Virus record (IMG/VR): IMGVR_UViG_2716884766_000001
Span: 1 to 64,000 of that record
Length of the DNA stretch: 64,000 nt
Source: a virus
Reading direction: 5' to 3' (one strand)
This document shows positions 3,365 through 50,275 of the stretch, piece after piece (position 1 is the first letter of the stretch; the number at the start of each line of letters is the position of its first letter). A program made the translations under genes and the position numbers. The notes beneath the pieces are model-generated. The model was not told where the DNA came from, made no database searches, and saw nothing but the letters and a program-made list of their open reading frames with translations.

Positions 3365-6300
3365 TTAGATAATTACCCAACTACCGCCATTTGCGATTGA
3401 AATTGTATACCCATTGTTAACTGTTAGAGGACCAGCAGTGAAACATGAGTCTCCATTATTTATAGTGATACTCTCAGAGATAGATTGACGGTTTCTCTTT
3501 ATTATACCATATCTATCAACCCATTGCTTGTCTCCATTAGCACGAAGAACAACGGATCTCTGACCACTTGATACACCCACAGAACTTGAATCAATGTTAA
3601 GACCATTGTCTCCTCTGATCTCCATTCTGTAAGAGTTCTGAGTTGTGTCACTACCTGGTTCATAGAATGTCCATGTACCATAGTCACCATCACATGAAGC
3701 AATACTGTAGTCAGCATTGTTTCTCCAATAATAGTTATCACCACTACTATAGTATGTATGTGAGTCGTTAGCGAAGTAGAATCTTCTCTGACCTTCAGTG
3801 GTTGTGATCCACTCGTTAGTTGTTCTCTTCAAGTATGGAAGATCTAACGCATGGTATCCGTCAACCATATCAGCGTTCAAGTTAGAGTTAACTGTAGTAG
3901 ATGATATGTTGAATGGAGCAGTACCAGTTGAAACACGTGACCGTATTCTTCCGAAGAAGTGTACAGTAGAATCATTATAACGATACTTCATAACACGAGT
4001 ATCAGATCCACCATCTCTTCTGTAGAATGTTATGTCATCACCAGCTTCAGAGTTGAACGCACCAGGTGAGTTATCTCCATTGTAAGCGATACCACCACCA
4101 TAAGATAATGATTGTCCAACGTATAAGTATCCTGTACCTTGGTTATTACCAAATGCTTCAAAACCACACTGATAAGAGTCACCAGCTAATGCTCTAACAT
4201 ATGTGTTACCACTTCTACTTGTAGTACCAAAGGCAGCGTCTCCAGTAGATTGTAATGATATACCAGGATTGCTATCACCGATACCTAAACGTCCATTTCT
4301 GAAGTATACATTGTTGTATGATAGGTAAGAACCATTGTAACCGAATGAGTTACCATCATTACCAAATCTGATATAACCTTGACTTGAACTATTCTTACCT
4401 TTAATGGATAGAACGTTAGTGGTTGCCTTACCTACGGTAATACCATTACCATCACCAAGATTTAAAATTGATGTACCATTGTTAGTAAAGATACCTTGGT
4501 CACCGTGTATATCACTTACAAAGATATCACCAGATGATGTTCTACGTACAAGGTTGTTGCCCGCGTTGCCAGAGCTCTGAGTATAACCATCAACATAGTG
4601 TGCATCAAGTTGTGAGTTAACACCATCGTTACCCGCATGCCACACTGTGTTACTGTTGATAGTAACGCTACTGGACTTGATGTCCATGAGACCGTTACCA
4701 TTAGATGAGTTACCACCTGAGAACTCGAATCTTACATCATAGTTGTTTGATAGACCACCTGATCTTATATCAAAGTATGGTGTAGATACGATTCCTGCTC
4801 TACCCATTTCAAACAGAGCACCCTCAGCAGTATTGCTTAGAGCGAATACTTGTGAAGCACCTGTTGTTAATAGGTTAGATGATGTAACAGTCCACTTAGA
4901 GCCAGGGTTAGGACCGAAGACTCTGATGTCCTTGTTACCATAAGCACCAACGAATGTTATAGAACCAGTAACAACTGTATACTTAGCGTCTACAGTAGTA
5001 TCATTAGTCTCTGTGATACCACCTGGATCAATAGTGATTGTACCTATGTTATTTACAGCAGCATCATCAGCATATAGAGTGTATGTACCACCCGCTGAAA
5101 GGTTACCCGCAGGGTTTGAACCTGTTGCTGCGAAGAAGTTAGGAATGTATAATTGATATTTCTCTCCAGAGGATACAACGTAGAAGTTGTCAGCGACAAA
5201 CTTGTCTCTACCTAATAGAGTTGGTAAAGCTGGATCGCCAAGAACACCTACTGTTCTCTGGTCATGAATGTTATAACCTTGCTGATACCATAGACCTTGC
5301 TGATTATCTAAGAAGTCAGCGTTAGGACCTGGTAGTGTACCACGACGAGGTTCGTTAATGTCAGGAGGACCATCGTTCTCTGAATGCCATATCTTAGCCC
5401 AGTTACCATATACGTTAGATATGTCTGAGTTACCACGTAAGTATAGGTTGTCTGTAGCAGAGAATGATAACTGAGCAACAGAGTTGCCAGTAGCAGATCT
5501 TCTGAATGTTAATGTACCGTTTCTAGTTCCACCCGCGTCAGTTGGAATACCGTTAACGTTGTTAGATCTGAGTGCTAACTGAGCACCAACGTTTGCTGCT
5601 GATACGAGGTTAGCGTTAGCAGATGATGGAGCAGTTGTCTCAGCGAATAGTACGTTAGAGAAGTCAGCAGTACCAGATATGGATATAGCGTATGTGGTAT
5701 TTGCTAGACGTTGTGGATCAATAACACCTTCAACTAGGTTGGAAGCATTCTGATAGAACGCACCTTGGTTACCATCTAGTTTGTCAGCATTAAGTTCTGA
5801 TCCCGCACCTTGGTCGATGGATACTTCACCATTGTCTGTAACTCTGAATCCACCCTCTGTCTGATCACCAAGTGCTTGTTCAGCAACGTTCTTACGGAAC
5901 TTAGCAATACCGTAGTTACCAAAGACTGAACCACCAGCTTGTAATGTTGTTGGTGTAAGTTTGTTTGCCTTCTTAACGTCAATAGATGCGTTACCGAAGA
6001 ATCTAGGTAGAATACCCTTACGTGCGTTTAGTGTTGCTGCCTGTGATGGTGTACCTAGTTCATTTGGAACTGTTAGTACGAAGTCACCGTTATATCCAGT
6101 ACCTGGTGTAACCACAGATACACTGGTTATGACACCGAATGCTTGTGATGATGTTAGTGTTGATACACTGATCTCAACTGGTTGCTGTACTGTACCACCG
6201 AATAGAGGACCATCGAAGGTTAGTGTGTCACCACCTAAGTATCCAGATCCACCATTTAGTATGAGGTCAACTGATAGTGTACCTACACCGTCAGTAGTAA

Positions 6301-9300
6301 ATCTTATTTGAGCACCTAGACCCGCACCAGTTGTTGTAGATGGTGCTACGTCAAAGGTTGAGTTTGCTGTGTATGATTCAGGTGTCTGATTAAGGTTACT
6401 TACAGTAGCGATAATACCACCAGTAGTAACGTCAGCAACTGTGTAAGTAGCACGTGCTACTCCTGAGTCAGAGATAGGTACGTTACCACCCAACATTGGG
6501 ATGTTCTGATATGTACCGTTTGTATATCCTGTTCCTGCGACTGTTATGTCAACCTTCTCAATGTATGATGTGTCAGATAGACTTGACTCAGCAACCATAC
6601 AGTCAGCAGTTGAGAACTTGATAGACTGTATAACGTTCTGGTAAGAACTATCACCTCTTAAGAATGTGAATGAGTTCGCTATACCTGTTTTACCTAAACG
6701 CTCTGGGTCAATAGTACCCGCAACGATGTTAGATGCGTCAATGTTAGTTGATGATAACTGTGTCCAGTTAGCAGCGTCTTTAGCAGATGTGTTAACTGTT
6801 CTAATGACATCAACGATCTTCTTACGTTCGTAGTTACCAGATGTTAGCAGTGCGACTGCTGTTATAACTGTGTACTCGTTAGCGTTAACTGGAGTTACAT
6901 CATAGAAACCTGATGGAGATGAACCAGATGTAAAGTTAAGGTATACGATGTCACCTTGACTAAATCCATGATTGAGTTCTGTGACTGTGATATCGAATGT
7001 ATCATGTACGTATGTACCTGTAGCAACTGTCTGATTTGCTTCGTCTTGTAAGAAGTCAACGTTAGAGTACTTAATATTGTTCGCTAGGTCAACAGCTAAT
7101 CTTGCTTCAACTCTTGCTACATTACCTTGAGAAGTAGCAGTTGTACCACCTGTAGGAGCAGCAGTGAAGGTTACAGTAGGTTGTGTGAAGTATCCAGAAC
7201 CTTTGTTTGTAATTGTTATTGTGGATACTTGTCCGTTAACGATTGTACATGTCGCTGTTGCTTGTGTACCTGAACCGCCAGGTGCTGAGATTGTAATACC
7301 TGGTGGGTTTGTATATCCAGATCCAGTGTCGTCAACTAGAATGTCTCTAACAACACCTTGCTCATATCCTGTAATGATACCTTGAGCACCACTAGCAGAA
7401 CCAATAAGTATGTTGCCAGGTGTATATGTTAATGTTGAGTCAGGTGTGAACGCTACGAACATAGTGTCCAAATCATTCTCAAGAATGTAGGATATAGCAG
7501 CACCTTCAGTACGTAATGTATGAGTACCAGATCCTTGACTTGTTAGATTTCTAGCAGTACCACCTTGAGCATCAGATAGTGATGTAGCAAGTTTGATGTA
7601 GTCTGTGGTGTTAGCACCTACAGAGTGTACGATCACATAGTACTGAGCACCGTCTGCCAAGTTACCAATGTTACCAGTTCCTTGGAAGTAAGTTAGAATA
7701 TCACCTGTTGCTAGTCCGTGACCAGGTATTGTGATGTAGTTGTTAACTGTATCAACTGAAGCTGGTACGAATGTGAATGATGTAGATGTAGTTTCAATAG
7801 CGATGTCACCAGCTGATGCGTCTTCGATTGCTAGTCTCTCTGCTGTAGAAGCTACAGATGTAATATTGAATGGACGTAACGCAGGGATCTGTTCAATGTT
7901 GATCTTACCAGAGGTAGTCAACTGTACCAGAGCAGATGGAACAGCGTTAGTTGAGAATGGCTGGTTTAGGTATGGACCTAGTTTGTTAGTGATGTAATCC
8001 TTAACCGCTGCCTGTGTAGGTAGTAAGGAGTCAGAAGCGAACGCACCACCTAGTTCGTCACTGTCTGAAAATCCAGTGATAGTAATGGATCCACCAACAA
8101 TCTTAATAGATGAAAGTTCAGAGATACTAACAGTACCAACGAAACTAATAGAACCAGTTCTGTTGAAGATAGTAACGAAGTCTCCAACCTTGAAGTCACC
8201 AAACTCGTTAGTACCTGATGTATAAACCTGTCCGAATGATTCTTCAACAGCTTCGTTAGCAGGGATACCAACACCACCGTTTTGTGGTAGTGCTAAGTAT
8301 GTGTCACCCGCACCAACATATTCCCACGTATGTGAGGAAGAGTTACATACAGATGGTCTGTGTAATCTTATAGTCTTACCAACCAGAGTATCTAAGTTAC
8401 CCTGATCATATGATACTTCTGTATTTGTTGCGGTCTCATTTAGAGAAATTCCTAGACCGTCGTTTGTTGTAATATTAGCAGTAACCTGTGTACCGATAGA
8501 ACCAGATAACTTCTCTACACCTAGAATAAAGTATTCTTTAGCAGGGTCAGTATTAGTGTAACCATCAAACTTGATGATGTAATCTTCAATCGGGAAGTTA
8601 GTTAGTGTTGATCCACCAACCTCGATGATCTGACGACCTGTCTGAGCACCATTGTTATCAGTTTGGTTAACAACGTTTGTAACTGTACCTATGTCAAACT
8701 CATAAGCATCCTTTCTAAATCCAGTTGCTTTAAGAGCACGAGTACCGAAGTTAGACGCTGAGTTAGTTAGTGATGCATATCCACCTGACTGTACGATAAC
8801 TCCGTCTCCACCGAAGATAACGAACACAGACACCAACTGAGTATATCCATCGTTAAGAATGTTGTATCCAACACCACCACCGACTGAGATGATCGTGAAT
8901 GCGTTGGCAACCATTGACTTACCCTGTTTAGGGAAGACAGCACGTTCTCTACCGTTAGCATCTTGATAGACACCTGGTCTGGGAACGTTAGGTTCAGCAA
9001 CTTTAGCACCGTCAATCTCAGCACCTGACGCTCCTAAGAAGGAGATCAATGATGCGTTCTGAATATAAGGTGATGCCTCGATGACTGGTAGGTCAAGTAA
9101 GTCACCTAACATAGGAACTATTTTAAGACCACTGTCATCTTTAAGCAGTGTGCTTGGTTCAGTTAAGGTAACGCTACTTAGTGATGTAGGTGTAGCAAGA
9201 GCATTATCTAAAATTGTATGTAATGCTGTTAGAGCATTGATAGCAGCTCCACACTCAGGTTGATTATGATCAACTGTAGATGATGCGTTATGGAATGGTG

Positions 9301-16780: not shown

Positions 16781-16793
16781 CTTTTAATCCAGT

Positions 16794-17333: not shown

Positions 17334-17353
17334 GGTGTAGGGTTACCTTCGAT

Positions 17354-17361
17354 TATTTATA
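17354..17361 (-). promoter_or_regulatory. T4 late promoter TATAAATA
   Basis: Plus strand TATTTATA at 17354-17361; contains the TAA stop of the 2377-aa gene; about 20 nt upstream of the ATG at 17333. Confidence 0.8.
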
Positions 17362-24490: not shown

Positions 24491-24632
24491 TTATAGCATT
24501 CTCTGATGATTGATCTTGTATACTATTTAACTGGTTTTGTAAATCCAGTATCTTCGCCTCAAGCATAATGTTGGATAATGTCAGTTCAGAAACTTTACGT
24601 TGTAATGTGGAAATAATAATGTTTACGTTCAT
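24432..24632 (-). CDS. Small coiled-coil hypothetical protein
   Basis: 66 aa with heptad pattern (LQRKVSELTLSNIMLEAKILDLQNQL); fills the gap in the operon; its 3' end overlaps the next gene. Confidence 0.6.
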   Translation of the reverse strand: MNVNIIISTLQRKVSELTLSNIMLEAKILDLQNQLNSIQDQSSENAINGNEDQTKELDNPERDTDQ

Positions 24633-24644
24633 GAGTTTTCAGTG

Positions 24645-26324: not shown

Positions 26325-26545
26325 TAGAATGTACCCCCGTTAATCGTTATGTTGTTTAATACTGTTGTTGGTATGAACTTAGCTATACTTTGTTTGTATA
26401 CTAAAACACTACCGTCTTGTAAACCACCTGAGCTTGTGTCTGTCAGGTCAACGTCAGCTAAAGCACCAACGTTTCCACCCCCACCGCCTGTAGCGACGCG
26501 GGTTACTCTTGGAATTGATTGATCTCCAAATCTTAACCTTGCCAT
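26324..26545 (-). CDS. Small structural protein
   Basis: 73 aa; LADVD...DGSVLVY repeat-like motif and terminal NGGTF; overlapping stop/start with both neighbours. Confidence 0.7.
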   Translation of the reverse strand: MARLRFGDQSIPRVTRVATGGGGGNVGALADVDLTDTSSGGLQDGSVLVYKQSIAKFIPTTVLNNITINGGTF

Positions 26546-26883: not shown

Positions 26884-26906
26884 GGTATAAAATTTTCCCT
26901 AAAGAG

Positions 26907-26913
26907 TATTTAT
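26907..26913 (-). promoter_or_regulatory. T4-like late promoter (ATAAATA)
   Basis: Plus strand TATTTAT, 24 nt upstream of the ATG at 26883. Confidence 0.65.
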
Positions 26914-26920
26914 CTCAGAG

Positions 26921-27217
26921 TTATTTATTGCTTTTTTCCACTAGAACTTGAAGCATAGACTTGAGTTCTGTAATCTCATCTTTGAGGTCTAGAACTTCAT
27001 CACGCTTCTTGCTAGCTTCAGCACGGGCTTTGATATATGCCTCGTACGCAGCACGATCCGTATTAACAATAGCATTGCTATCTGGATCTCTTCCTAGGTG
27101 TTTATGATCTTCTACTTTTATTAAACCTTTTTCGTCTCTTGGGTCTAGTATACCCTGCTCTCTACGAGCAGTGATTTCTTTTTCTCGTTCTCTGGCTATT
27201 GCCTCAAAGTCTTCCAT
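26921..27217 (-). CDS. Conserved hypothetical protein downstream of the VrlC-like gene
   Basis: 98 aa; KVE.H..L.RD..SNAIVNTD..AY..Y motif and a C-terminal coiled coil. Confidence 0.75.
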   Translation of the reverse strand: MEDFEAIAREREKEITARREQGILDPRDEKGLIKVEDHKHLGRDPDSNAIVNTDRAAYEAYIKARAEASKKRDEVLDLKDEITELKSMLQVLVEKSNK

Positions 27218-35429: not shown

Positions 35430-35449
35430 TAGTATAGGGCTTTATAGGT

Positions 35450-35457
35450 TATTTATA
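35450..35457 (-). promoter_or_regulatory. T4 late promoter TATAAATA upstream of gp8
   Basis: Plus strand TATTTATA at 35450-35457, overlapping the gp7 stop codon. Confidence 0.8.
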
Positions 35458-41400: not shown

Positions 41401-44400
41401 TAACTGATGAGTTCCTCATTGGAGGTTCTAAGAATGTTATCGTACTGCCTGAAAGAGTGTATGATGTAGGGTTCTGTACAATACCGTTGATAGTAACCAT
41501 CAACTGATTCTTATTTGTAGGTACAGTTGCTGTACCTCTAGTTCTTAACTGGAAGTTTCTATTAACATCATCAAATTCTACAGTTAGTTGATGCTGTGAG
41601 TCTGTTGATAGTGCTGTAATGTCTACAGTAGTATCAGCAACACCAACATTGATTGTTACATCATTACCAACTACATTAGTGATTGCTAGTGGTGTGTTGT
41701 AGGCAGGGTCTGTTGAACGTGGATAAGCATGAGTAGTAGCATGGTTATCTCCCGCACAAGTAAAGGTAAAGGCACCTAATCCTAATGTAATTGTATGACT
41801 GGTAGTCATTGTATTACTAGAAACTGTAAATGTTAGGTCACCTGTTACGGGGTTGTATGTCGCAGCAGAAGGTGTGCCAGTAAATCCATTACTACCTGTG
41901 ATTGGTAAGGCACTTACAAATGTATGAACAGATCCACCTGTTGTGGTAGATAGTTTAAAGTTATCATCATCTACACGAGTGACATAGTACGTACCTACTG
42001 GTAAACCACCTAGAGTTATACCTTCTCTAACATAAGGATAGTTACCTACATTCTGAGTTGGAATGTTGCCTGGATTGTCAATCGCATCCCAAACAATTTG
42101 AGCTAACACAGTTATAGCAGATTGTACATCAGCACATCCACCAGGATCTTGTGTGATTGTGACATCAGTGAATGGTAATAGGTTTTGAATTGCTTGTATG
42201 GCTAAGTCTCTAGCATACTGTATAGCAGCTATAGTCTCAACTGTCTCACCAACGATATAGTCTATAGCACCACCAACAACATAAGACTCAGCAGCATCTA
42301 CAGAGAATTTGTTACCACCATAGCGTAAATCATTACACCATGCGATAACTATAAGTCTTAGGTCTCTAGCACATGTGTCTGCGTTGTAATCTGGTTTAGT
42401 ACCATCAGTTAAGTTAGGATAACTCTGCTCTAACCATGTAATAGTAGTAGCAATGATATAATCTAAGTTGCCTAGTATTAAATTACGGGCATCTTGGAAT
42501 CTATCACCTTGTACAAGGTAAGATACTCTCTGATTTGATATTAGTCCGTGGTTGGCAAATGTAATCTGCTCATTTGATATATCTACGACATTACTATCTG
42601 TACCATTGAAGGTAATAGTCCTCTCATTGATAGGATCCATCTTATCAACAACAGCAGATAATATCTTTCTAACGTCAAGTAACTGTTTACCAACAACCTG
42701 AATGTTAGTTGGAACTGTTGCTGTGTAATCTGGTTTACCAAGTACAAAGTTCTCGATACGAGCTAACTTACCTGTGTTAGACGCGGATGGTTTAGGTACA
42801 AAGAAGGTTGTGCCATTAAATGACTTATTCTCATCACCAAATCTTTGTTCCCACCAGTCATTAGGATCTGGATTAGCACCATTGTAATATGATCTACGTT
42901 GATATCTCTTAAAGGCTGATTGTGATACGACCTGTGTACCTAATACCCTGAAACCAGCTGGGTGAGCAGAATTCTTAAATTGGTTCTTCCAGTCCCGTAC
43001 GTTGATTGGCGAGTTGACCACGTATGAGAACTCTTGGTATCTGTCACTATCGTATAGACGCTGATCGTTAAGATCAAGTATACCAGTAGTACGCTTAAAC
43101 TCAGCAGTAGCAGTGGCAATAGGTGATACAGTAAAGTTAGCGACTGATCTGTCAAAGTCATGTATTTCTCCAAAGGCATTAGACTGTAAACCGAAGACTG
43201 GTTGGTTAAGAGCAAACTCTCCTACCTCTACTTCAACAGATAGGACTCTACCTTTAGAATCCCATGCTTTTACTATACCCTGAGCAGAGAATGAAGCTAC
43301 AGATGAACCTTGATATACTTTCTCACCGATAGCAAATGACGCAGGAGTCATTGATACAGTAATCTGATCTCCTAAGTCTGTGGTTGTTAGGTTAAAGGTT
43401 GCTGTTCCTCCACTACCAATAGAAGGTTGACCTGTTATTGTTATTGATGATCCTGCCAAAGCATTTGCTAGTGTTGTTGCCATCTTGAGCTGGTTACTAG
43501 CAAGACCATTAGCAAGTGAAGGTGCTATAGCATAATATGTGACATTTGCTTGAAGAGGAGCTGGTAATGTACCATCTATCTCTAATAATTGTACTTTTGT
43601 ACCTAAAGGTATCTTAGTATCGTATGGGAAGTTAAGTGTACTGTTAGATTGTAGAGGAACGAATGAGTGAGTAATTCTTGCTTGTACAGCAGGAGTAGAT
43701 GAGTAACCTCTACCTGCATTTGCTATTGTAATTGCCTGAATAACTTCGTTGTCAATAATAGCATCCATAACGGCACCGCTTCCACCTCCACCAATGAGTT
43801 CGATGGTTGGTTTGGTAACGAAGGATCCACCACCGTTTGTAACAGTGAAGAAGTCAACGATTTGAGTTCGTGTGAGCTGTAAATTATAGTTTGTATTAAC
43901 GCTTGGTTTGAGGGTTCTATCATGACTGTAATTGTACGTGATATTGTCTCCACCAAGACTGATGATCTTACCTAGATCACTAGACTTGAGTAGTATGGAA
44001 GCACCATTTCCTGTACCCTGCTTAACTGTAATAATAGGAGGATTTTGGAATCTAGTTCCTGCGTTTTCAATAACAATAGAACTTACAGTCTCATCTATGA
44101 TCTCAGCACGTAGTACAGCATCTATACCTGTACCACCAGAGATCTGAACTTCAGGAGCAGATAAGAAACCTGATCCAGAGTTAGATACAATAACCTGATC
44201 AATAGAAGCATCTATAGTTGTACCTGTGACTGCCTTACGAACAAAGTCAAGTGAGTCAACTCTAAGAACAAAGTCATCTGCTGAACTACCACCTGTAATA
44301 TCCTCACCACGAATAGTAATAAGGTCACCTAGTGAATAGTTTGCTCCACCCGCTAATACATTAGCAGTTGTTACGTCTTGATTGGACGCAGAAATGATAA

Positions 44401-47400
44401 CTTGAATTGATACCCCACTACCACCTGTAGGAGCTACAGATTCCTGTGATACGGTATATGTACCTGGCGTAAAGTTAGCAGAACTATTCTGACTATTGAC
44501 GCTAAGAGTAGCTACACCACCGTAGTATGGGTCATCAATAAAGATTTCAGGGGCAGTACGGTAATTACTACCTCCATCACCATTTATAGCTATATTACTT
44601 ATAGTTCCTATCTCAGGACCTGATGAAGGAACGATAGCAGCAACGTTTGCTTGCTCACCACCAACTGCTGTTATTTTTGCTTGGTTTGATCCTGCGTATA
44701 TCTTATTAGTAGCAGCAATAGCAGTGGTAAACATGATGAAACCACGAGTAGCAGCACCTGGTAGATTATTACGTAATGGTTGTACTCTAAGTGTAGATGT
44801 ATTTGGATCCCAACTGATTACCTTACCTCTAGCAGTATCACCGTCAAGAACTAACTTAGATGCTATAACGTCACCTGGATTAAAGTCACCAAAGATCTCA
44901 TCTAGTGTCAAATCTACAAAGTCTGGCATAGAGCAGACAACAGCAGGAGGATTAGCACCATCATATCCAATACCCGCTTCTAATACTGATACGTCTTCTA
45001 GTTTACCTGAGATAGTAGCAAATGCTTGAGCACCACCACCTGACCTTTCTACACCTGTAAATTTAGGGAATGTAGAATAGTTTCTGCCTGGATCACCTAT
45101 GTTGATACTAGCAATACCACCTGAAGGGAATATAGAGTTAGTAGAGTATGAAATCAGATTAGCAGCTGTATAGTTATTCTCTGGTTCTCTTGCTAATATA
45201 AAGTTAATTGTAGTTGTAGTAGGAATTGCTGTGACTGTGTTCGCTCCTAGGAATGGATCGTTAACTACGCTCAGGTAGCTACCAGATACACCACCATTGA
45301 TATCAAAGTAGAATAATGTGCCAGGTACATCATCTAGTGATATAGTAATTGATATTTGTTCTCCTGTAACTGGATCATTCTCTGATCCAACAATATTTTT
45401 ATATGTGAATACATTAGTATTCTCTTTATCAAAGGTAAACTCTAGTCTCTTACCAGTATTAGATGAGTCAGTGGTGTTAAACTTATAAAGGTGACCGTTG
45501 ATAAGATCTAACTTAGGTTCTTTGACATACACTACACATGCTGTAGTAATAGCAGTATCAGTTATAATACCAACTGCTTTCTTGAACTGGAATCTTCTTC
45601 CTGTGCTTATACCTGTAACTGTGAACGTACCATCATAGTCAACTGGGTTAGTTCCTGTAATAATAACCTCATCACCTATCTTCACTTGATGGGCAGCTGT
45701 ACCTCTAGCAGTAAACTCTTGATTTATCTTACTAGGAGTGATGTAGAATCCATTAACACCACCAATATCGCTAGTAACAATAGGATCTAACTGCTCATTG
45801 TTGTAGTAACCACTACCTTCCTTTGTTAGAGTGACAGATGTTACCTCACCACTATTACCAACGACAATAGTAAACTCAGCACCTTCACCTGAAGAGGCAG
45901 AACTATTAGCAAGAGGAACGTTAGTATATGTGCCAGGTGTACCACCACTACCAGCTAACATTGTCCATTCATCTTGTACTATACCACCAGTCTTTTTGAC
46001 ATTACCAATATCTACAGAGAAGTTTTGACCTGTATTACCAATATTAGAGATATTGGCAGTTAGTACATCTCCATTGCTGTAATTCTTACCTGTATTCTGT
46101 ATAGAGACAGATGTGACCGTATTTCCACTTACGATGATATCAGCAGAAGCATTTTGCCCTGTACCGCCAATTAGAGGTACATTCGAGTAATTACCATCTG
46201 TGAGTCCTGTACCGCCAGTAATCGAGATATTAGCTTGTAATATCCTACCCTTTGAACTAATGATGAAATTAGTCAAATCAAAGTATTTAAAGTGATATTT
46301 GTCGTTTACAACCTTTACATCAATCTCACGGGTGTATTGGTTGTCTCCAATCGCAATATCAACACTATCGCCAATTTTTAAGAAATGATCAGTCGCTGTA
46401 GTGATAGTTCCAGTAATTACGTCTGTAGTCGAGTTTACAGAAGAAACAATCGCAGATGTGCCAGATCCAGAGATTTTAGACACTCTAGCGGAAACACCAC
46501 TTCCTCCAGTGCCTGTTTCGTCAAATATGAGTCTATCGTTAACTTTATAGTTGAAACCTGGACCTTCGATCAGATATTGGTCTAATCCACTTGAGAAGTA
46601 CCTATTTGTCGCAGATACGAATAATGAGTCAACAGAACCACCCTGAATGCTTGGGAAGAAGTCAAAGTACCCAATACCGACAGTTACGAAGCCAATGAAG
46701 GATTCATCGTTTTCTAAGACAATAGGAGTCGTAGAATCTTCCATAGCGAGTATATACTCGACTGGGTTGCCTTTATTCTTTCTTCTTACTAATGCTGTGT
46801 CTGTAGCAACATATGGACGTTTATAGCGAACTGCGTCTTCTGTAAAGTTTCTTTGGAGTCCATTTCCCTTCCAGTTGACATCTTCTGCCTGAGAGTAGTA
46901 ATTAGGTCCTACAAAGTAAGGAAACTTCGGATTTCCAGTTGTTCCGTCTAATGCTGTGAAATATGCGTATATACCAGCTGGATATTCGGGAGTTACGCAG
47001 AATCGACCATTATACTGATCTAAGTCGCCTAATCCTTCAACATATTCGTAATCTTCGATATATGTCCCCATCTTGTCGATTTGTGCCAAATCATTACCAA
47101 CTAACGCATCTCTTTCCGTTCTGATGCGATATGAGCTGATCATTTGCTTGATCTGGTTATATGGGTTCTTATTCTCTCTATCTGCGTATCCGTAAGGTCC
47201 GTAAATGGGATGTCCGTCAAATGACCATCCTAAGATCGGTGAATGCCTTGTTGGGTTTAATTCTGCGTATGTTGTGTCACTTACGTTATCTCCAAGTAAG
47301 AAACGCAACTTTTTGGGATTATATAAGTATCCGTACTCTCCACCATAGATTCCGAAGTTAGCACCTTTGATTGATACACCATTATTACTATCTGCTATTT

Positions 47401-50275
47401 TAGGTGATACAAACAGTGGATCTCCGACTTCATCCGCACTAGCAGCTAAGTTCTGCGTCAATATAGGTAATTCGACTTGGAAGGTAGCTCCAGAACCAGG
47501 ATACACGATATCAACAGTTGTTATACCAGAAGTGTAACCTACACCTCCATTAGTGACTGTAATACCCGTAACTTGCTGTGTACCAGAATCTATACTCGCA
47601 AAAGCAACCGCACCGACTCCATCACCACTAATAACAACGTCAGGAGCACCATAGTAGTTACTACCACCAAATGTCAAGATAATAGATACAATCTTACCAT
47701 TTACGATAGATGGGTAAGCAACAGCACCAGATCCAGATACTAGAGTGATATTTGGTCTTTGATTGTAGTTTGTACCATTGTTTGTGATTGTTATGCCTTC
47801 AGCTTCTAATCCACCACGAACAACCGCTGTACCAGTCGCACCTTGTCCACCACCACCAGATATTACCACTGTAGGTATAGATTGGTATCCTGAGCCAGGT
47901 GCGGACACGGATATAGCAGTTACGACTCCTGCGGTGATTGTAGCAGTCGCAGATGCTTCAACTGTAGGACTTCCACCCACAATACCAACTGTAGGAGCTT
48001 CCGTATAACCAGATCCTCCGTTTTCTACGTTTACCGCAAATAATGAACCAGATACGCTTACAGTAGCTTCAGCAGACAATCCTTCGTATTCCCAGAGGCA
48101 ACCACCGTCTTGTACTGGATCTGGAGTTGTATGTGTAGGTTCTTGTCCTAATTCTGCGGTTTTACCGCTTCCTAAGTTCTTATATCTGTATCCTAGACTA
48201 TTTCTGATTCTTTGGTTAAGAAAGAAGGATGTACCCTTTCTATGGATTGGTTCAAACTCTACAATCGGTGGATTAGTGATATCATACCCAGATCCCGCAT
48301 TTAGAACCGTAATTGACTTTACACCACCAAATAGTTTCGTTTCTACTGATTTATAGGAGAACATTGGTACTCCATTCACAGCAAACCCAACTTGACCCAC
48401 AGGAGTCGGAGTTTTGATAGATTTAGTAGTTGTTTCGAGAGGAATGCGTTTTAGATATCTCTGGTTGCCAGGATCTAGGTCTCCGCTGCCAAAAGGTCCT
48501 ATTTCATGACCAGGTACACCTGGTGACGCAATTATCGCATATTCTGAAGATCTGTAGACATTCTGTACATCAGATGGTGTATCCTCTAATCCTAAACGTA
48601 TAGATGTGTCAACTGACGTAGTTTTCGCAAATTCACGTGTAACTAGGAATGGTACGTCCACACCACGGATAGGAGTGCTAGGAATTAAGATACTAAACTC
48701 AAAATTGTTACTTACACCAAGTACAGTGAATGATGAGTTATATACGTCCTCTGGAGCGTTCAAAATGACAACTCTGTCTTCTCTTCTTAATCCGTGCTCT
48801 TGTTCAGTCGTAATATTCGCTACAACACTACCATCTGCCTTCGGAACGTCTAAAACTAGCAATGTTCCGTTTAGGAGCTTCTTAACGTTGTATACGAAGC
48901 TTTCCCAGATAGGATCTAACGCATCAAAGCCTGGTTCTGATGGTGTGGTGACTTTTGAGTCTTGTAAGTAATATTTACCGCCACTTACGATGTCTATTCC
49001 TCTTGTACCGCCAAATACCTTTAAACTGATCTTAGATTCGTCTCTATTGCTGTATCCAAAGATTTCATAGGAAGAAGTTACCTCAGATCCTGCAATATGG
49101 GGTGCATTGACTGTATCTTGTCTCGCACGGGTACATCCTAGGAACTGGGTGACTGTTTTGTCTGTATAGTTGATAATCTCGTCATCTATACGAATAGAGC
49201 CGTTCTGTTCTGGCCATCCAATAGTAGAGTCGACTGTTACGACGTTTTCCGTAAGGTTAGAACTTAGATCTTCAGAAAGGAGCGTTTTATACGGAGTTGT
49301 GAAACTTCCATCGCCATTTTCCGTATCTACATCTAATTCATAGATCTTTCCGTCTTCGGTAAACACCTCAACTACGGATTTTACGTATATACGTGCGGAA
49401 TTGACAAGAGGGTCGTTTGGATCGTTCTCTTGGAATAATACTTCACCTGTAAGTTCCACAGGGTTTCCGCTTATCGCTGTAGCACGAATAATCTCCCTTA
49501 CAGTGTAAAATGCGTCACTAGGTTTGAATATTCTTTCTTTAGGGTACTCAATAACTGCTTCTACACCAAAGAGCACTCTCATCAAGTACTTAAATGACCT
49601 TGATGTACCTTTAGCAGCGTAAAAGTCCTTAAGACGCTTAGTAACTGTTGATTGTTGGATTTGGGGGTCAAACTTAGAAGGGAATGACTCAGCAAACTGA
49701 TCTCTGAACCTCTGTAGTAAGAATAGAGGTAAAAGGTTGTTTAGGTTGACTACTGTAGCACCAAAAGCATGTGTAGCTGCTACAGATGTTGAAAATGTGT
49801 ACTCTGATAGTAAACCTATCTTGGTAGTGGCATGAAATCCTCTAACACACTCTTGAAACTGTGTTTGGGACTTACTCTTGTAGTATATGATCTCTTCGTC
49901 TATCATTAAGAGACCTTCCTTTGGAAAATCTCTAGTATTTCCTACGTCAATGACTGTTGAGTCTAAAGTCACCCCAGAGGACGCTGTAGTCGACTCTACG
50001 AGGTCATTTAGCTTGTCTATGTTATAATATTCATCTATGTTCTGTATTATGTCAACAGGGTTACCCTTTAGTTCAAGTGATTTAAAGTAATACTTGACAA
50101 ATTGTATAAAGTCAGGATAATCCTCTTGGATAAACTGAGGCATTTGCTCCTCAAGTCTATCCGAGACTTTAGATTTAGATTCTGGCGAAACCGAAGCGTC
50201 AATCGGGTCAACTGTGACCTCAGTTTGAGGTGTGACCCACGACGCAACTCTCCACGACGACTGCTCAGCTGGCAT
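35453..50275 (-). CDS. gp7: Baseplate wedge initiator gp7, greatly expanded (4940 aa)
   Basis: Lies between gp6 and gp8; QMPQFIQEDYPDFIQFVKYYF, KDFYAAKGTSRSFKYLMRVLFG and DSDRYQEFSYVV...HPAGF core motifs; also a split YHYH-like domain and nested repeats. Confidence 0.88.
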   Translation of the reverse strand: MPAEQSSWRVASWVTPQTEVTVDPIDASVSPESKSKVSDRLEEQMPQFIQEDYPDFIQFVKYYFKSLELKGNPVDIIQNIDEYYNIDKLNDLVESTTASSGVTLDSTVIDVGNTRDFPKEGLLMIDEEIIYYKSKSQTQFQECVRGFHATTKIGLLSEYTFSTSVAATHAFGATVVNLNNLLPLFLLQRFRDQFAESFPSKFDPQIQQSTVTKRLKDFYAAKGTSRSFKYLMRVLFGVEAVIEYPKERIFKPSDAFYTVREIIRATAISGNPVELTGEVLFQENDPNDPLVNSARIYVKSVVEVFTEDGKIYELDVDTENGDGSFTTPYKTLLSEDLSSNLTENVVTVDSTIGWPEQNGSIRIDDEIINYTDKTVTQFLGCTRARQDTVNAPHIAGSEVTSSYEIFGYSNRDESKISLKVFGGTRGIDIVSGGKYYLQDSKVTTPSEPGFDALDPIWESFVYNVKKLLNGTLLVLDVPKADGSVVANITTEQEHGLRREDRVVILNAPEDVYNSSFTVLGVSNNFEFSILIPSTPIRGVDVPFLVTREFAKTTSVDTSIRLGLEDTPSDVQNVYRSSEYAIIASPGVPGHEIGPFGSGDLDPGNQRYLKRIPLETTTKSIKTPTPVGQVGFAVNGVPMFSYKSVETKLFGGVKSITVLNAGSGYDITNPPIVEFEPIHRKGTSFFLNQRIRNSLGYRYKNLGSGKTAELGQEPTHTTPDPVQDGGCLWEYEGLSAEATVSVSGSLFAVNVENGGSGYTEAPTVGIVGGSPTVEASATATITAGVVTAISVSAPGSGYQSIPTVVISGGGGQGATGTAVVRGGLEAEGITITNNGTNYNQRPNITLVSGSGAVAYPSIVNGKIVSIILTFGGSNYYGAPDVVISGDGVGAVAFASIDSGTQQVTGITVTNGGVGYTSGITTVDIVYPGSGATFQVELPILTQNLAASADEVGDPLFVSPKIADSNNGVSIKGANFGIYGGEYGYLYNPKKLRFLLGDNVSDTTYAELNPTRHSPILGWSFDGHPIYGPYGYADRENKNPYNQIKQMISSYRIRTERDALVGNDLAQIDKMGTYIEDYEYVEGLGDLDQYNGRFCVTPEYPAGIYAYFTALDGTTGNPKFPYFVGPNYYSQAEDVNWKGNGLQRNFTEDAVRYKRPYVATDTALVRRKNKGNPVEYILAMEDSTTPIVLENDESFIGFVTVGIGYFDFFPSIQGGSVDSLFVSATNRYFSSGLDQYLIEGPGFNYKVNDRLIFDETGTGGSGVSARVSKISGSGTSAIVSSVNSTTDVITGTITTATDHFLKIGDSVDIAIGDNQYTREIDVKVVNDKYHFKYFDLTNFIISSKGRILQANISITGGTGLTDGNYSNVPLIGGTGQNASADIIVSGNTVTSVSIQNTGKNYSNGDVLTANISNIGNTGQNFSVDIGNVKKTGGIVQDEWTMLAGSGGTPGTYTNVPLANSSASSGEGAEFTIVVGNSGEVTSVTLTKEGSGYYNNEQLDPIVTSDIGGVNGFYITPSKINQEFTARGTAAHQVKIGDEVIITGTNPVDYDGTFTVTGISTGRRFQFKKAVGIITDTAITTACVVYVKEPKLDLINGHLYKFNTTDSSNTGKRLEFTFDKENTNVFTYKNIVGSENDPVTGEQISITISLDDVPGTLFYFDINGGVSGSYLSVVNDPFLGANTVTAIPTTTTINFILAREPENNYTAANLISYSTNSIFPSGGIASINIGDPGRNYSTFPKFTGVERSGGGAQAFATISGKLEDVSVLEAGIGYDGANPPAVVCSMPDFVDLTLDEIFGDFNPGDVIASKLVLDGDTARGKVISWDPNTSTLRVQPLRNNLPGAATRGFIMFTTAIAATNKIYAGSNQAKITAVGGEQANVAAIVPSSGPEIGTISNIAINGDGGSNYRTAPEIFIDDPYYGGVATLSVNSQNSSANFTPGTYTVSQESVAPTGGSGVSIQVIISASNQDVTTANVLAGGANYSLGDLITIRGEDITGGSSADDFVLRVDSLDFVRKAVTGTTIDASIDQVIVSNSGSGFLSAPEVQISGGTGIDAVLRAEIIDETVSSIVIENAGTRFQNPPIITVKQGTGNGASILLKSSDLGKIISLGGDNITYNYSHDRTLKPSVNTNYNLQLTRTQIVDFFTVTNGGGSFVTKPTIELIGGGGSGAVMDAIIDNEVIQAITIANAGRGYSSTPAVQARITHSFVPLQSNSTLNFPYDTKIPLGTKVQLLEIDGTLPAPLQANVTYYAIAPSLANGLASNQLKMATTLANALAGSSITITGQPSIGSGGTATFNLTTTDLGDQITVSMTPASFAIGEKVYQGSSVASFSAQGIVKAWDSKGRVLSVEVEVGEFALNQPVFGLQSNAFGEIHDFDRSVANFTVSPIATATAEFKRTTGILDLNDQRLYDSDRYQEFSYVVNSPINVRDWKNQFKNSAHPAGFRVLGTQVVSQSAFKRYQRRSYYNGANPDPNDWWEQRFGDENKSFNGTTFFVPKPSASNTGKLARIENFVLGKPDYTATVPTNIQVVGKQLLDVRKILSAVVDKMDPINERTITFNGTDSNVVDISNEQITFANHGLISNQRVSYLVQGDRFQDARNLILGNLDYIIATTITWLEQSYPNLTDGTKPDYNADTCARDLRLIVIAWCNDLRYGGNKFSVDAAESYVVGGAIDYIVGETVETIAAIQYARDLAIQAIQNLLPFTDVTITQDPGGCADVQSAITVLAQIVWDAIDNPGNIPTQNVGNYPYVREGITLGGLPVGTYYVTRVDDDNFKLSTTTGGSVHTFVSALPITGSNGFTGTPSAATYNPVTGDLTFTVSSNTMTTSHTITLGLGAFTFTCAGDNHATTHAYPRSTDPAYNTPLAITNVVGNDVTINVGVADTTVDITALSTDSQHQLTVEFDDVNRNFQLRTRGTATVPTNKNQLMVTINGIVQNPTSYTLSGSTITFLEPPMRNSSVIIMYFKRSDISGNFQLDQFGDVITALNTTDGVYQGTGYTAGTYNNVPFTNKLSDGSGATGNIVVTNVLDSATFVTDNKYADARTLIDNNAGVIADIAVGLMNKYGTPVDNKVADAANLILMNKDFIAREAVDRMHADIPYTIANKRHFDAYNLIMANKDFIVWEAYYLFKTIDYPGYTHAQGYTEQDCRDDLMDILEAIAFNLLFGANNKVYDASFYYTSAYSSGSVIQGEEQQTIAAVNQMKGLMDKVILNETVSIAGDHGYEQYFEDVTYIYDGCASAKSAISTFVDIVVTAINTDLMIHVNKTEPTLFVEPTGNDEDCVDDVRDVLEAVAINAKFGGNSEVYDAAKYYVDGAHVAGEEIHTIYAFREADKIARQVIANEAVTVVGDHGEIQKYDGGITRSDNQCASARATIHTLMNIVEVAVDTNTMSAFTRTAPTGFNAPGLGDGQCKSDTRDVLNAVATNVAYGGNHTLYDTLNMYFVGSHVAGEEAETLYVFEEARQMVLKAIQQESFETYSHLNLTDKSQYKDPTITAYQSTDATQYNVTNAVYTATSGQVEITIGSHSLEVGTRVKLDDMSLTFKCAQDGSVTHHKYPRSTDWAYRKSLPILSKTGTTITLYVGESPTVNYQITDATYDPATGDMDMEVYNTQFNVSAATYNANTGSMTVNIGSHSMEIGEEIMFRPESLGFKCSMDGNNATKMYPRFGKDPFYDKALKIIAKTNNTITVNVGPSPLVNHTVTGSNYDPVTGLVELTIGNHILKVGDAITITDNSLVYQCLMDFYQTDHSYPRPSDPASGAALTITAVTDTSITIQSLSSTPSTNTSTHRWKPGYVANDAVQSGGGHTHTFQTAVTGAVVIPHGLRSERTLSIDSADYNPTTGIMTVTCENHGLTPTDEIIIDDNSLIFTCQEDSHASDHAYPRGSDPISELWQPITDVTRNTFKVQVLNTAPSTNTTDHIFKAAVAYNLHVRGTTLKISDGGITFTCDAAVGTHTFVSGTTNGITAGNGASGTFTAATGTTYDPLTGLMEVEIGTHSLTTSNTVTFADNSVTFTCAADNHATNHAYPRASDPSSGVAEAITAVSATTITVDVGIAGSSSSTHSYPRTDIVNHTVTNAVYTPADGDMVVTVVGHSMRKGDYVKFDDDSLTFTCAEDGNGSNHTYPRSTDPVSGKWLRIRNVTTDTFKVRVLDFIPSTNTTTHAFVSATSNGLKQKKDQAYDQPLSIVRSSIDRITVNVGIAATNASTHVYSSSLTNALTIGGNYTHTFLSATPNAVKQGYGVREACTAVQATVDTLMDLAYTALNQGNFSGITRTVGNHGDGYETAPTVQISGGSPTTAGSYVPVLAERGYVKSIGIIVGGVGYTNVPTVKITSKTGFNAAATATVSGGALTGITVDEGGFGYNDVTIEIIANPADTITTTATAAAIVGRHLERIVVQETGVGYASTPTLSLTGGSASTAAGTLSAPIARTTGAVTGVSLVSGGDGYKNTDVLGVDAADVGGTVGNSFQVEVETVTFNGTTTGFAATVGGSGYTLPANDRFLLFLNSHIQELGTAYSYSGTPSTINFTEAPKGNMDFYCFYVGQLQDMDSIAPFMNGTKKTFILKKNDQPFSLESDSTQVIPANNLIMFLNGVYQEPEVSYTLDGSILEFSEAPRAGSEVLIYIYTGSDLDIVIEDTYSALDPGDLLQVQSEGDIRRLATIASSSSLDTYEYTGLKPNVAIFQSVVVNGVVVQVNIIDSGSNYEVAPFLIFSGGGGSGAFAETIIEQGSGRVIGIKNLKGGSNYNTPPSVTPYHPIALERTQRDRAVSNGTFLYTTQLTGAIGQQTATIPVLDAYYNNGVGFPTNGELLIPFWNASTSTWGCERILYGSVDYAAETFTVTTNGRGFKNTGTALGFGYANGPESGNFNSSGTNCVITMGSNHNLQTGMERFIRFTSAIGNWPTGSLNGTYKITRASDTAFSISLPVSLTATGTMEILPTIRVYTV
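37481..41173 (-). repeat. Three nested helical repeats enclosing a seven-copy beta-repeat tree in gp7
   Basis: Three consecutive N-halves (YADARTLI, VADAANLI, HFDAYNLI) then three cores (CRDD, CVDD, CKSD); seven F/Y-x-C...YPR beta units at about 37574-39787. Confidence 0.8.

What the first reader, a model, noticed from the sequence alone, without database searches (positions are those of the whole stretch)
3365..50275. Candidate new system: recursively nested ('Russian-doll') domain architecture building branched virion appendages
Seen: gp7 (4940 aa) and the 4471-aa fibre share two repeat families, a ~100-aa beta module (8 copies in each protein) and a ~140-aa helical module (4 copies in each). 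The motif order cannot be parsed as tandem repeats but parses cleanly as balanced brackets: a copy opens, another is inserted in one of its loops, and the first then resumes where it stopped. The same loops are reused in both genes: after YPR (resuming at K.D), after V.VG..P/T (resuming at GG..H.F), and before HG[LI]. Inference: each insertion adds a branch, so the polypeptide encodes a tree or antler-like structure instead of a rod, expanded by in-frame recombination of a shared module toolkit between structural genes. I do not know of this being described, but I cannot search the literature.
Basis: partly seen in the sequence, partly recalled or inferred. Interest (0 to 1): 0.93.

Follow-up and report, generated by a model that had tools for sequence, protein, structure and literature searches.

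The report
Self-nested domains in cyanophage tail proteins
Two giant tail proteins of a marine cyanobacterial virus are built from two small domains inserted inside copies of themselves, like Russian dolls; one of the two domains is a relative of the host's light-harvesting pigment proteins, and it occurs only in phages that also carry the unexplained pigment-attaching gene cpeT.

Summary
The window is the baseplate and fibre block of a T4-like cyanomyovirus. The gp7-like protein (4940 aa) and the fibre (4471 aa) each hold 8 copies of a ~100-aa beta module and 4 copies of a ~150-aa helical module.

- HMM hits are split. Their complementary parts recur in last-in-first-out order.
- After in-silico excision, all 16 beta modules give one full-length HMM match.
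- Orthologues gain or lose whole modules exactly at loops.
- AlphaFold2 models of one nest of each family are confident. For the beta nest, both the inner and the interrupted outer copy align to single barrel domains.

Nesting and tree-like connectivity are real. The antler-like 3D shape is inferred. The principle is already described for the Si3 arm of cyanobacterial RNA polymerase.

Beyond the finding, the helical module is a phycobiliprotein homologue. It keeps the bilin-attachment Cys and Asp. In 20 cyanophage genomes it co-occurs perfectly with the phage lyase gene cpeT (15 with both, 5 with neither). In S-PM2 and Syn1, cpeT lies just upstream of the fibre gene. Pigment binding is untested.

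This scan has noted both themes before on other DNA.

The parts
35453..50275 (-). gp7-like giant baseplate wedge protein, 4940 aa (P0001)
   Evidence: ORF. PF23786 Baseplate_wedge at 37.5 bits, PF14240 YHYH, phrog_2885. Flanked by gp6 (50278-52152) and gp8 (33906-35429).
3365..16780 (-). Fibre-type giant structural protein, 4471 aa (P0002)
   Evidence: ORF. phrog_5342 tail fiber protein, E = 0. Orthologues in S-PM2 and Syn1 are annotated as short tail fiber and lie next to gp12.
10040..12529 (-). Fibre beta-barrel tree, aa 1418-2247. Eight modules: A(B(C); D(E; F(G)); H), four levels deep.
   Evidence: Split HMM hits. Each rejoined module gives one full-length HMM match of 84-140 bits.
11852..12469 (-). 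Fibre nest B(C)B, aa 1438-1643: the unit that was folded
   Evidence: AlphaFold2 with 37 sequences: pLDDT 94.4, pTM 0.84. Single barrel domains align to residues 58-162 and, separately, to 1..206 with only 65-83 residues aligned.
11162..11488 (-). Fibre module E, aa 1765-1873, absent as a unit from orthologue P0023
   Evidence: In P0023 the host module reads straight through (KYYPRS-NGN-DPFY).
13187..13552 (-). Fibre helical (phycobiliprotein-like) module H1, first part, aa 1077-1198 [HMM 2-127]
13082..13165 (-). Fibre helical module H2, opening helix, aa 1206-1233 [1-28]
12590..13057 (-). Fibre helical module H3, uninterrupted, aa 1242-1397
   Evidence: 197.8 bits
9692..10045 (-). Fibre H2 resumes after H3 and the beta tree, aa 2246-2363 [33-152]
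   Evidence: Orthologue P0187 has the same helical nest without the beta tree.
9584..9673 (-). Fibre H1 closing helix, aa 2370-2399 [122-152]
   Evidence: It comes after H2's closure, so the order is last-in-first-out.
9191..9538 (-). Fibre fourth helical module, aa 2415-2530 [37-152]. Its opening helix may be aa 957-982 (13835-13912), which is only weakly supported.
   Evidence: 69.5 bits for the body; the candidate opening helix scores only 0.1 bits, i-E 0.55
42074..42502 (-). gp7 uninterrupted helical module, aa 2592-2734
41630..41929 (-). gp7 circularly permuted beta module, aa 2783-2882, absent as a 100-aa block from orthologues about 90% identical
   Evidence: Indel against P0142, P0125 and P0144. 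After de-permutation it gives a full HMM match of 88 bits.
40112..41077 (-). gp7 helical nest, aa 3067-3388: opening helix, complete module, then the rest of the outer module. This is the unit that was folded.
   Evidence: AlphaFold2: pLDDT 86.2, pTM 0.77. The inner module matches phycoerythrin 5aqd_M at Z 16.2, rmsd 2.6, 147 residues aligned.
41096..41170 (-). gp7 outermost helical module, opening helix, aa 3036-3060
   Evidence: i-E 0.00097
39788..40093 (-). gp7 outermost helical module, middle part, aa 3395-3496
37574..39769 (-). gp7 beta-barrel tree, aa 3503-4234: M1(M2(M3(M4); M5; M6 permuted; M7)). M2 is a hub cut at four loops.
   Evidence: The five-piece hub M2 rejoins to a full HMM match of 75 bits.
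37490..37570 (-). gp7 outermost helical module, closing helix after the beta tree, aa 4236-4262
   Evidence: HMM 102-152, i-E 0.007. Orthologues P0146 and P0147 lack the beta tree and have this module uninterrupted.

Best explanation
The window is the baseplate and fibre gene block of a T4-like cyanomyovirus. Its gp7-like wedge protein and a fibre-type protein carry large side structures built from two autonomous domains.

The two domains:
- A ~100-aa six-stranded-type beta barrel.
- A ~150-aa globin-like helical domain that is homologous to phycobiliproteins.

How the structure is built:
- Both domains appear to have their two chain ends close together. This is inferred from the existence of circularly permuted copies and from the insertions themselves.
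- A whole copy can therefore be inserted into a surface loop of another copy without unfolding it.
- Repeating this gives a rooted tree of domains. The chain runs out through the first parts of the host domains and comes back through their last parts.
- Every child domain is tied to its parent by two linkers.
- The whole array starts and ends at one point, so it can itself sit in a loop of a scaffold domain.

Shown here: the nesting, its generality, loop-specific insertion, and gain or loss of whole modules between orthologues. Predicted here: that interrupted copies fold as single domains. Inferred: that the result is a stiff, branched projection that displays many barrels, and possibly pigment-type domains, at the baseplate and fibres for host contact.
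For: Identity of the block:
- The nearest DNA is gp7 of P-HM1 and MED4-213.
- Gene order is gp6-gp7-gp8. PHROG and Pfam matches agree.

Nesting:
- Split HMM hits have complementary coordinates.
- Across 121 proteins, 175 continuation pieces fit only last-in-first-out and 16 only first-in-first-out. Break points cluster at five sites. The median insert is 108 aa.
- These sites lie between the strands of the predicted barrel (DSSP).

Excision test:
- All 16 rejoined or de-permuted modules give one full-length HMM match of 75-152 bits.
- In 56 nested units, the nested pairing of halves beats the swapped pairing in 55.

Natural excisions:
- P0023 lacks fibre module E exactly. P0007, P0008, P0009 and P0012 carry 211 extra aa.
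- gp7 orthologues about 90% identical lack blocks of 100 aa and 106 aa.
- P0187 lacks the whole fibre beta tree. P0146 and P0147 lack the gp7 beta tree, and there the host helical module is contiguous.

Folding:
- Beta nest: pLDDT 94.4, pTM 0.84. E1 FCCH (Z 8.4), the phi92 endosialidase barrel (Z 7.2) and FNR-type barrels align to residues 58-162. The same fold class (8qq7, 1ddg, 4ac9) aligns across 1..206 with only 65-83 residues aligned. That pattern is what the interrupted outer copy should give.
- Helical nest: pLDDT 86.2, pTM 0.77.

Distribution:
- More than 775 giant metagenomic proteins carry the beta module.
- The beta module is in 285 isolate phage records and the helical module in 306. 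All 306 helical-module records are named Synechococcus, Prochlorococcus or Cyanophage; of the 285 beta-module records, 278 are so named and 7 are labelled only 'Marine' virus (single-cell contigs)..
Against: - No atomic coordinates could be inspected. The discontinuous outer barrel rests on alignment ranges, not on contacts.
- For the helical nest, only the inner copy appeared in the structure matches.
- The large-scale parse of the helical module is noisy: 42 first-in-first-out-only cases against 91 last-in-first-out-only, with many unclosed pieces.
- Some short gp7 pieces are below HMM detection and were placed by eye.
- The shape, stiffness and oligomeric state of the arrays are unknown.
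- The function of the barrels is unknown. The best fold matches have Z 7-8.4, which is within the range of chance-level common folds.
- Virion location is by homology and others' annotation, not measured here.
Confidence: 0.86

Rival explanations
1. The arrays are tandem or domain-swapped. Each first-half piece folds with the second half of the copy next to it in sequence, so there are no discontinuous domains and no tree.
For: N1-N2-C2-C1 has the same order as two duplicated halves (N-N-C-C). In the helical family, 42 continuation pieces fit only first-in-first-out.
Against: - When break points differ, the order of closers is last-in-first-out: 175 against 16. The fibre helical modules follow the same order.
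- The nested pairing of halves beats the swapped pairing in 55 of 56 units.
- Orthologues lack exactly one whole inner copy, which leaves a contiguous host module.
- Structure matches cover residues 58-162 as one compact domain.
Confidence: 0.05
2. The pattern reflects a folded-back trimeric fibre shaft, like the needle of T4 gp37. The chain runs to a tip and returns, so motifs recur in mirror order without forming globular domains.
For: The 4471-aa protein is fibre-like. Mirror-order motifs are expected for out-and-back shafts. Conserved His and Cys residues recall the metal-binding His motifs of T4 fibre tips (own knowledge).
Against: - The module also occurs as many uninterrupted single copies; 459 were found among the 121 proteins.
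- It occurs in gp7, which in T4 is not a trimeric fibre (own knowledge).
- It folds as a monomer into a confident compact barrel.
- The returning pieces are the missing parts of the same HMM, not mirror images.
Confidence: 0.04
3. Chance recurrence of short motifs, or misassembly of a repeat-rich region.
For: The region is repetitive, and the source is a 32-contig assembly in which the phage contig is binned with a cyanobacterial genome.
Against: - HMM matches have E-values from 1e-24 to 1e-48.
- Random orders almost never parse as balanced.
- The same architecture is found in independent metagenome assemblies at 85-94% identity.
- Module copies are only about 70% identical at most at the DNA level, too diverged to misassemble.
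Confidence: 0.01
4. The trees are mainly a display of pigment-type domains. The phycobiliprotein-like modules carry covalently bound bilin attached by the phage lyase CpeT, and the nesting only serves to mount them. See the novel case.
For: - Profile match to phycobiliproteins only, with the module's Cys and Asp aligned on the bilin Cys and Asp.
- C42 is kept in 98% and D45 in 99% of 212 modules.
- Fold match at Z 16.2.
- Perfect co-occurrence with cpeT in 20 genomes.
- cpeT lies just upstream of the fibre gene in S-PM2 and Syn1.
Against: - No pigment data exist.
- The window's copies have C-x-D-D, not C-x-R-D, plus a second conserved Cys that could form a disulfide.
- The beta barrels nest equally without any pigment link. 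S-SSM7 has barrels but no helical module.
- The co-occurrence is not corrected for phylogeny.
- T-type lyases are known to serve the beta-153/155 site, not Cys84 (PMC10452541).
Confidence: 0.3

Closest known systems
Si3 insertion of cyanobacterial RNA polymerase beta' (RpoC2)
   Same: One small beta domain family is inserted recursively into copies of itself. Some nodes host several inserts. The array forms a long arm that starts and ends in one loop of a scaffold. Six levels are reported for Prochlorococcus RpoC2 (PMC13114784).
   Different: - The domain family differs: sandwich-barrel hybrid motifs there, whereas no SBHM chain was among the top 50 structure matches here.
- Here two unrelated families nest in each other as well as in themselves.
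- The total depth from the fibre scaffold is about 7-8 levels.
- Copies include circular permutants.
- Copy number changes between phages that are 90% identical.
- The context is a virus particle, not an enzyme.
Phycobiliproteins (Pfam PF00502: phycoerythrin, phycocyanin, allophycocyanin, ApcE bilin domain)
   Same: - The helical module has the same globin-type fold: 5aqd_M at Z 16.2, rmsd 2.6, 147 of 184 residues aligned, 21% identity.
- Its profile matches only phycobiliproteins in the PDB, best E 6.7e-05.
- Its near-invariant Cys and Asp align on the bilin-binding Cys and Asp.
- A subclass has K-C-x-R-D-x-G-Y, as in C-phycocyanin alpha (the comparison with C-PC alpha is from my own knowledge).
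   Different: - It lacks the N-terminal X-Y hairpin used for alpha-beta pairing. The alignment starts near residue 37.
- It is embedded and nested in virion proteins.
- The window's copies do not reach Pfam's threshold singly.
- They read C-x-D-D and have a second conserved Cys.
- Pigment binding is unknown.
Single inserted beta barrels of phage structural proteins (endosialidase barrel of phi92/K1F, P22 coat I-domain, barrels in the lambda tail-tip entries 9e7m_Ja and 8iyk_J)
   Same: Small barrels inserted in loops of larger phage structural domains. They are the nearest phage fold matches, at Z 5.1-7.2.
   Different: Those are single insertions of one barrel. Here the barrel hosts further copies of itself at five different loops.
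T4 gp7 baseplate wedge protein
   Same: Pfam and PHROG matches, and the position between gp6 and gp8.
   Different: T4 gp7 is about 1030 aa (own knowledge). This protein is 4940 aa because of the inserted arrays.
Nested-domain pilus adhesins such as RrgA (own knowledge, not checked here)
   Same: Domains inserted in domains, so that the chain goes out to a tip domain and back, giving a stalk.
   Different: The nested domains there belong to different families and there are only a few levels.

Membership tests
Recursive self-nested domain insertion (type case: RNA polymerase beta' Si3) | Copies of one domain family are split, and the missing part follows after an inserted copy, in last-in-first-out order | tested here: met
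   (175 against 16)
Recursive self-nested domain insertion (type case: RNA polymerase beta' Si3) | Flanks rejoin into a complete domain once the insert is removed | tested here: met
   (16 of 16 full-length matches, 75-152 bits); natural excisions
Recursive self-nested domain insertion (type case: RNA polymerase beta' Si3) | The interrupted copy folds as one discontinuous domain in 3D | tested here: inconclusive
   The AlphaFold2 model is confident, and barrel domains align over 1..206 with 65-83 residues aligned. Contacts could not be inspected and no experimental structure exists. For the helical nest, only the inner copy was matched.
Recursive self-nested domain insertion (type case: RNA polymerase beta' Si3) | The module is a sandwich-barrel hybrid motif | tested here: inconclusive
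   No SBHM or RNA polymerase chain is among the 50 best structure matches. The best matches are E1 FCCH, FNR-type and translation-factor barrels.
Phycobiliprotein family (PF00502) | Phycobiliprotein-type globin fold | tested here: met
   the top eight matches are phycobiliproteins or ApcE, Z 12.4-16.2. Foldseek probability 1.00, TM by target 0.6-0.7.
Phycobiliprotein family (PF00502) | Sequence match above Pfam's gathering score | tested here: not met
   The window's gp7 copies give no Pfam match, and its one tested fibre copy gives only a weak DUF7539 match (14.6 bits, cut-off 27). Copies from relatives reach 13-16 bits against a cut-off of 22.2. A profile of 32 modules does match phycobiliproteins only, best E 6.7e-05, and many homologues carry precomputed PF00502 hits.
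Phycobiliprotein family (PF00502) | Bilin-attachment Cys (82/84) and the Asp three residues later | tested here: met
   The alignment places them correctly. C42 is kept in 98% and D45 in 99% of 212 modules.
Phycobiliprotein family (PF00502) | N-terminal X-Y helix hairpin that forms the alpha-beta monomer | tested here: not met
   The module aligns from about residue 37 of the phycobiliprotein and from residue 28 by structure.
Phycobiliprotein family (PF00502) | Covalently bound bilin | not testable with these tools
   Needs spectroscopy, zinc-blot or mass spectrometry.
T4-type baseplate wedge protein gp7 | Sequence match to the wedge family, and position between gp6 and gp8 | tested here: met
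   PF23786 at 37.5 bits against a cut-off of 27, and phrog_2885 at E = 0. gp6 and gp8 domains are in the flanking ORFs.
E1 FCCH-like or reductase/elongation-factor-type beta barrel | Fold match that covers the domain | tested here: inconclusive
   Z 7.1-8.4, rmsd 2.4-3.1, 78-80 residues aligned, which is within the range the tool gives for common arrangements. PF16190 is precomputed on some homologues.

The most novel reading that the evidence does not exclude
The phycobiliprotein-like modules mounted in these nested trees are real bilin-binding domains. They are chromophorylated during infection by the phage's own T-type lyase CpeT, using phage or host bilin. The baseplate and fibres of many T4-like cyanophages would then carry pigment.

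This would give a purpose to the long-unexplained phage cpeT. It would also offer a light-sensitive element on the tail for the light-dependent adsorption seen in P-HM1, P-HM2 and S-PM2. P-SSM2 still adsorbs in the dark, and it lacks both the module and cpeT.
Probability: 0.3. Interest if true: 0.95.

Novelty: new variant of a known kind. Interest (0 to 1): 0.8.

Why it matters
Protein architecture. This is one of the deepest and most variable natural cases of a protein built by recursive insertion of a domain into itself.
- Two families are involved, five insertion loops are reused, and some copies are circular permutants.
- Whole layers are gained or lost between near-identical phages.
- It shows how a virus can grow large, closed, probably stiff side structures out of a loop of an essential scaffold without breaking that scaffold.
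- It gives a natural library of permissive insertion sites for protein engineering.

Cyanophage biology. The larger point is that one of the two modules is a phycobiliprotein homologue with the pigment-binding residues.
- It tracks the phage lyase gene cpeT perfectly in 20 genomes from 17 named genera plus one unclassified phage.
- The role of phage cpeT has been called unresolved and that of pebS/pcyA a mystery since 2010 (PMC3037559).
- The cause of light-dependent adsorption is unknown. [quoted passage not shown]
- Both questions become directly testable with purified virions and simple co-expression.

Tried and rejected
- Foldseek against the PDB gave no match at E <= 0.001 for either model. 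The VIA search was needed.
- The ESM Atlas search gave only hypothetical viral clusters and no residue detail.
- Model coordinates are not exposed. Contacts, the Cys-Cys distance and the overall shape could not be examined.
- A profile search of the PDB with the beta module gave only a marginal hit to iota-carbonic anhydrase repeats. I treat it as not meaningful.
The N-terminal flank aligns weakly (z 4.8). The C-terminal flank does not (z 0.7). BLAST finds nothing collinear.
- A profile of the C-terminal two thirds of the helical module finds no phycobiliprotein. Whether the second conserved Cys equals the beta-153/155 site served by T-type lyases could not be decided.
- A search for recent DNA-level duplicates of modules within the window was negative.
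- tblastn with the window phage's CpeT is too insensitive for a census, finding only 59 records.
- No 2OG-Fe(II) oxygenase or cpeT lies next to the window's fibre gene, unlike in S-PM2 and Syn1.
- Literature searches found no description of nested domains or of phycobiliprotein-like domains in phage particles. The library lacks most subscription journals, and the CpeT structure paper could not be read.
Full report
**What the window is.** All large ORFs lie on the minus strand. The 4940-aa protein matches baseplate wedge families (PF23786, phrog_2885) and carries a YHYH domain. It sits between ORFs with gp6 and gp8 domains. Its nearest DNA relatives are gp7 of the Prochlorococcus phages P-HM1 and MED4-213, at about 73% identity over a small part. 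The 4471-aa protein matches a tail-fibre PHROG. The window is contig 3 of a 1.6-Mb, 32-contig assembly. The other contigs look cyanobacterial, so a phage genome has been binned with a host.

**Checking the observation.**
- I built an HMM from six uninterrupted beta modules and searched the window's proteins with it. The hits are split, their HMM coordinates are complementary, and they come in nested order.
- I rebuilt the HMM from 444 distinct uninterrupted copies taken from 121 homologous giant proteins. It gave the same picture.
- Across those proteins, fragment ends and starts cluster at HMM positions ~25, ~44, ~56, ~70 and ~81.
- Where two or more copies are open and their break points differ, the next piece fits only the most recently opened copy 175 times and only the oldest 16 times.
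- The median length between rejoined pieces is 108 aa, which is one module.
- The five sites fall between the strands of the predicted barrel (DSSP).
- The fibre parses as A(B(C); D(E; F(G)); H). gp7 parses as M1(M2(M3(M4); M5; M6; M7)), plus one separate copy.
- Shuffled orders of the same pieces parse as balanced in about 0.1% (fibre) and 0.04% (gp7) of trials. Some short gp7 pieces were placed by eye.

- After joining the pieces in silico, all 16 modules give one full-length HMM match of 75-152 bits. This includes the three-piece A and D, the five-piece hub M2 and two circularly permuted copies.
- In 56 simple nests from many proteins, pairing each first half with its own distant second half beats the swapped pairing in 55.

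**Natural excisions.**
- Orthologue P0023 lacks fibre module E exactly. Its host module then reads straight through the loop after YPR.
- Orthologues P0007, P0008, P0009 and P0012 carry 211 extra residues, two modules, in another loop.
- gp7 orthologues about 90% identical lack a 100-aa block and a 106-aa block. Removing the second leaves an ordinary FTC..D.NATNH.YPR stretch. Both blocks are permuted copies that begin with the strand that normally ends the module.
- P0187 has the fibre's helical nest without the 830-aa beta tree.
- P0146 and P0147 have gp7 without any beta module, and the host helical module is contiguous there.
- Other relatives nest the helical module five deep.

**Structure.**
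- AlphaFold2 on the fibre nest B(C)B, with 37 aligned nests, gave pLDDT 94.4 and pTM 0.84.
- Coordinates are not exposed, so I used the ranges of structure matches instead.
- Single barrel domains align to residues 58-162, the inner copy. These are E1 FCCH (Z 8.4, rmsd 2.8, 80 aligned), the phi92 endosialidase barrel (Z 7.2) and FNR-type FAD barrels.
- Barrels of the same class (8qq7 183-274, 1ddg, 4ac9) also align over 1..206 with only 65-83 residues aligned. This is what the interrupted outer copy should give.
- This supports discontinuous domains but is indirect.
- The gp7 helical nest gave pLDDT 86.2 and pTM 0.77.

**What the helical module is.**
- The inner copy matches phycoerythrin beta (5aqd_M: Z 16.2, rmsd 2.6, 147 aligned, 21% identity). 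Next come allophycocyanin, the ApcE bilin domain and phycobilisome chains. Sensor globins follow only after these.
- A profile of 32 diverse modules hits only phycobiliproteins in the PDB (114 sequences, best E 6.7e-05). It aligns the module's Cys and Asp on the bilin-attachment Cys and the Asp of the C-x-R-D motif.
- In 212 complete modules, that Cys is kept in 98% and the Asp in 99%. A second Cys is kept in 88%.
- Among the 26 copies without the second Cys, 19 read C-x-R-D, most of them as K-C-x-R-D-x-G-Y.
- The module lacks the N-terminal hairpin of true phycobiliproteins.
- The window's own copies do not reach Pfam's threshold singly.
- The helical module is found only in cyanophage records (306). 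The beta module is in 285 records, 278 of them named cyanophages and 7 labelled only as marine viruses.

**Link to cpeT.**
- The window's phage contig carries a CpeT-family gene, a bilin reductase and a heme oxygenase.
- I searched whole phage records with the module profile and with PF06206.
- Both are present in P-HM1, P-HM2, S-PM2, P-SSM4, Syn1, Syn9, P-RSM4, S-TIM4, S-CAM7, P-RSM1, S-RIM2, ACG-2014d, S-RIM8, S-WAM1 and S-CAM8.
- Both are absent in P-SSM2, S-SM2, S-SSM7, P-TIM68 and S-CRM01.
- None is discordant.
- S-SSM7 has beta modules but neither the helical module nor cpeT. P-SSM2 has pebS and ho1 but not cpeT (PMC3037559). The link is therefore specific to the lyase.
- In S-PM2 and Syn1, which belong to different genera, cpeT and a 2OG-Fe(II) oxygenase gene lie just upstream of the giant module-bearing fibre gene, on the same strand.
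- The tally is not corrected for phylogeny, and the five phages lacking both may represent few independent events.
- Published work calls the role of phage cpeT unresolved and that of pebS/pcyA a mystery (PMC3037559).
- P-HM1 and P-HM2 do not adsorb in the dark, while P-SSM2 does, and the mechanism is unknown (PMC6628666).
- T-type lyases are known for the beta-153 site (PMC10452541). I could not decide whether the module's second Cys corresponds to that site.

**Comparison with what is known.**
- Domain insertion is common.
- Recursive insertion of one family into itself, with branching nodes and six levels, is described for the Si3 arm of cyanobacterial RNA polymerase (PMC13114784). The principle is therefore not new.
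- What is new here: the setting (a virus particle), the use of two unrelated families that also nest in each other, five reusable loops, permuted copies, a depth of about 7-8 levels counted from the fibre scaffold, and rapid turnover of whole layers.
- I found no paper describing this, or phycobiliprotein-like domains in phage particles. The library is incomplete.
- Earlier notes of this scan report both themes on other genomes. One of them left a cpeT-specific link open, which my tally addresses.

**Verdict.** The nesting interpretation is supported. The branched shape and the recombination mechanism are inferred. The claim of being wholly undescribed is not right in principle. The most interesting open reading is that these trees mount pigment-binding domains served by phage CpeT.

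Noticed in passing
window 9191-13552 and 37490-42502 (helical modules); related phage records: The helical module is a phycobiliprotein homologue that keeps the bilin Cys and Asp. It co-occurs with phage cpeT in 20 of 20 genomes tested (15 with both, 5 with neither).
   Followed up: yes
L018 (S-PM2 162500-177500) and L019 (Syn1 18500-34000): Conserved gene order on one strand in two genera: hypothetical T4-GC 730, cpeT, small genes, 2OG-Fe(II) oxygenase (T4-GC 104), giant module-bearing 'short tail fiber' (T4-GC 734), gp12. The oxygenase might modify the fibre. The module has three near-invariant Asn residues.
   Followed up: partly
G000 contigs C1, C3, C4: The window's contig (phage, with cpeT-like, bilin reductase and heme oxygenase genes) is binned in a 1.6-Mb, 95%-complete assembly. 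The other contigs carry host-type copies of the same bilin genes. This is probably an infected cell or a binning artefact.
   Followed up: no
window 10040-12529 and 37574-39769: The beta module keeps His24, Cys43, His50 and His87 (numbering of alignment A1), besides the Y-P-R motif. This is a possible metal site. Some copies replace His50 by Lys or lose His24.
   Followed up: no
window 1093-3364: Three adjacent paralogous ORFs of about 250 aa lie just downstream of the fibre gene. They match each other, and the one scanned (2612-3364) matches Pfam Gly_rich_2.
   Followed up: no
proteins P0148, P0153, P0164 (metagenome relatives): Relatives nest the phycobiliprotein-like module five deep, always broken before the last helix. 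Five first parts come in a row, followed later by a stack of last helices.
   Followed up: partly
proteins P0024, P0031, P0048-P0061, P0162, P0184 and P0212: A subclass of the helical module has the canonical C-x-R-D motif, mostly as K-C-x-R-D-x-G-Y, and lacks the second Cys. It is closer to true phycobiliproteins than the window's C-x-D-D copies.
   Followed up: partly
window 35453-50275, aa 978-1110 and 2914-2961: gp7 also carries a YHYH domain (PF14240, 92.9 bits) and a weak DUF4183 match. The 100-aa permuted barrel at aa 2783-2882 sits just upstream of the DUF4183 match, in a region that has no other beta or helical module.
   Followed up: no
L018, S-PM2 RefSeq record: Sixteen tRNA features are annotated inside the giant fibre CDS and share its locus tag. 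This looks like a coordinate or annotation error in that record.
   Followed up: no
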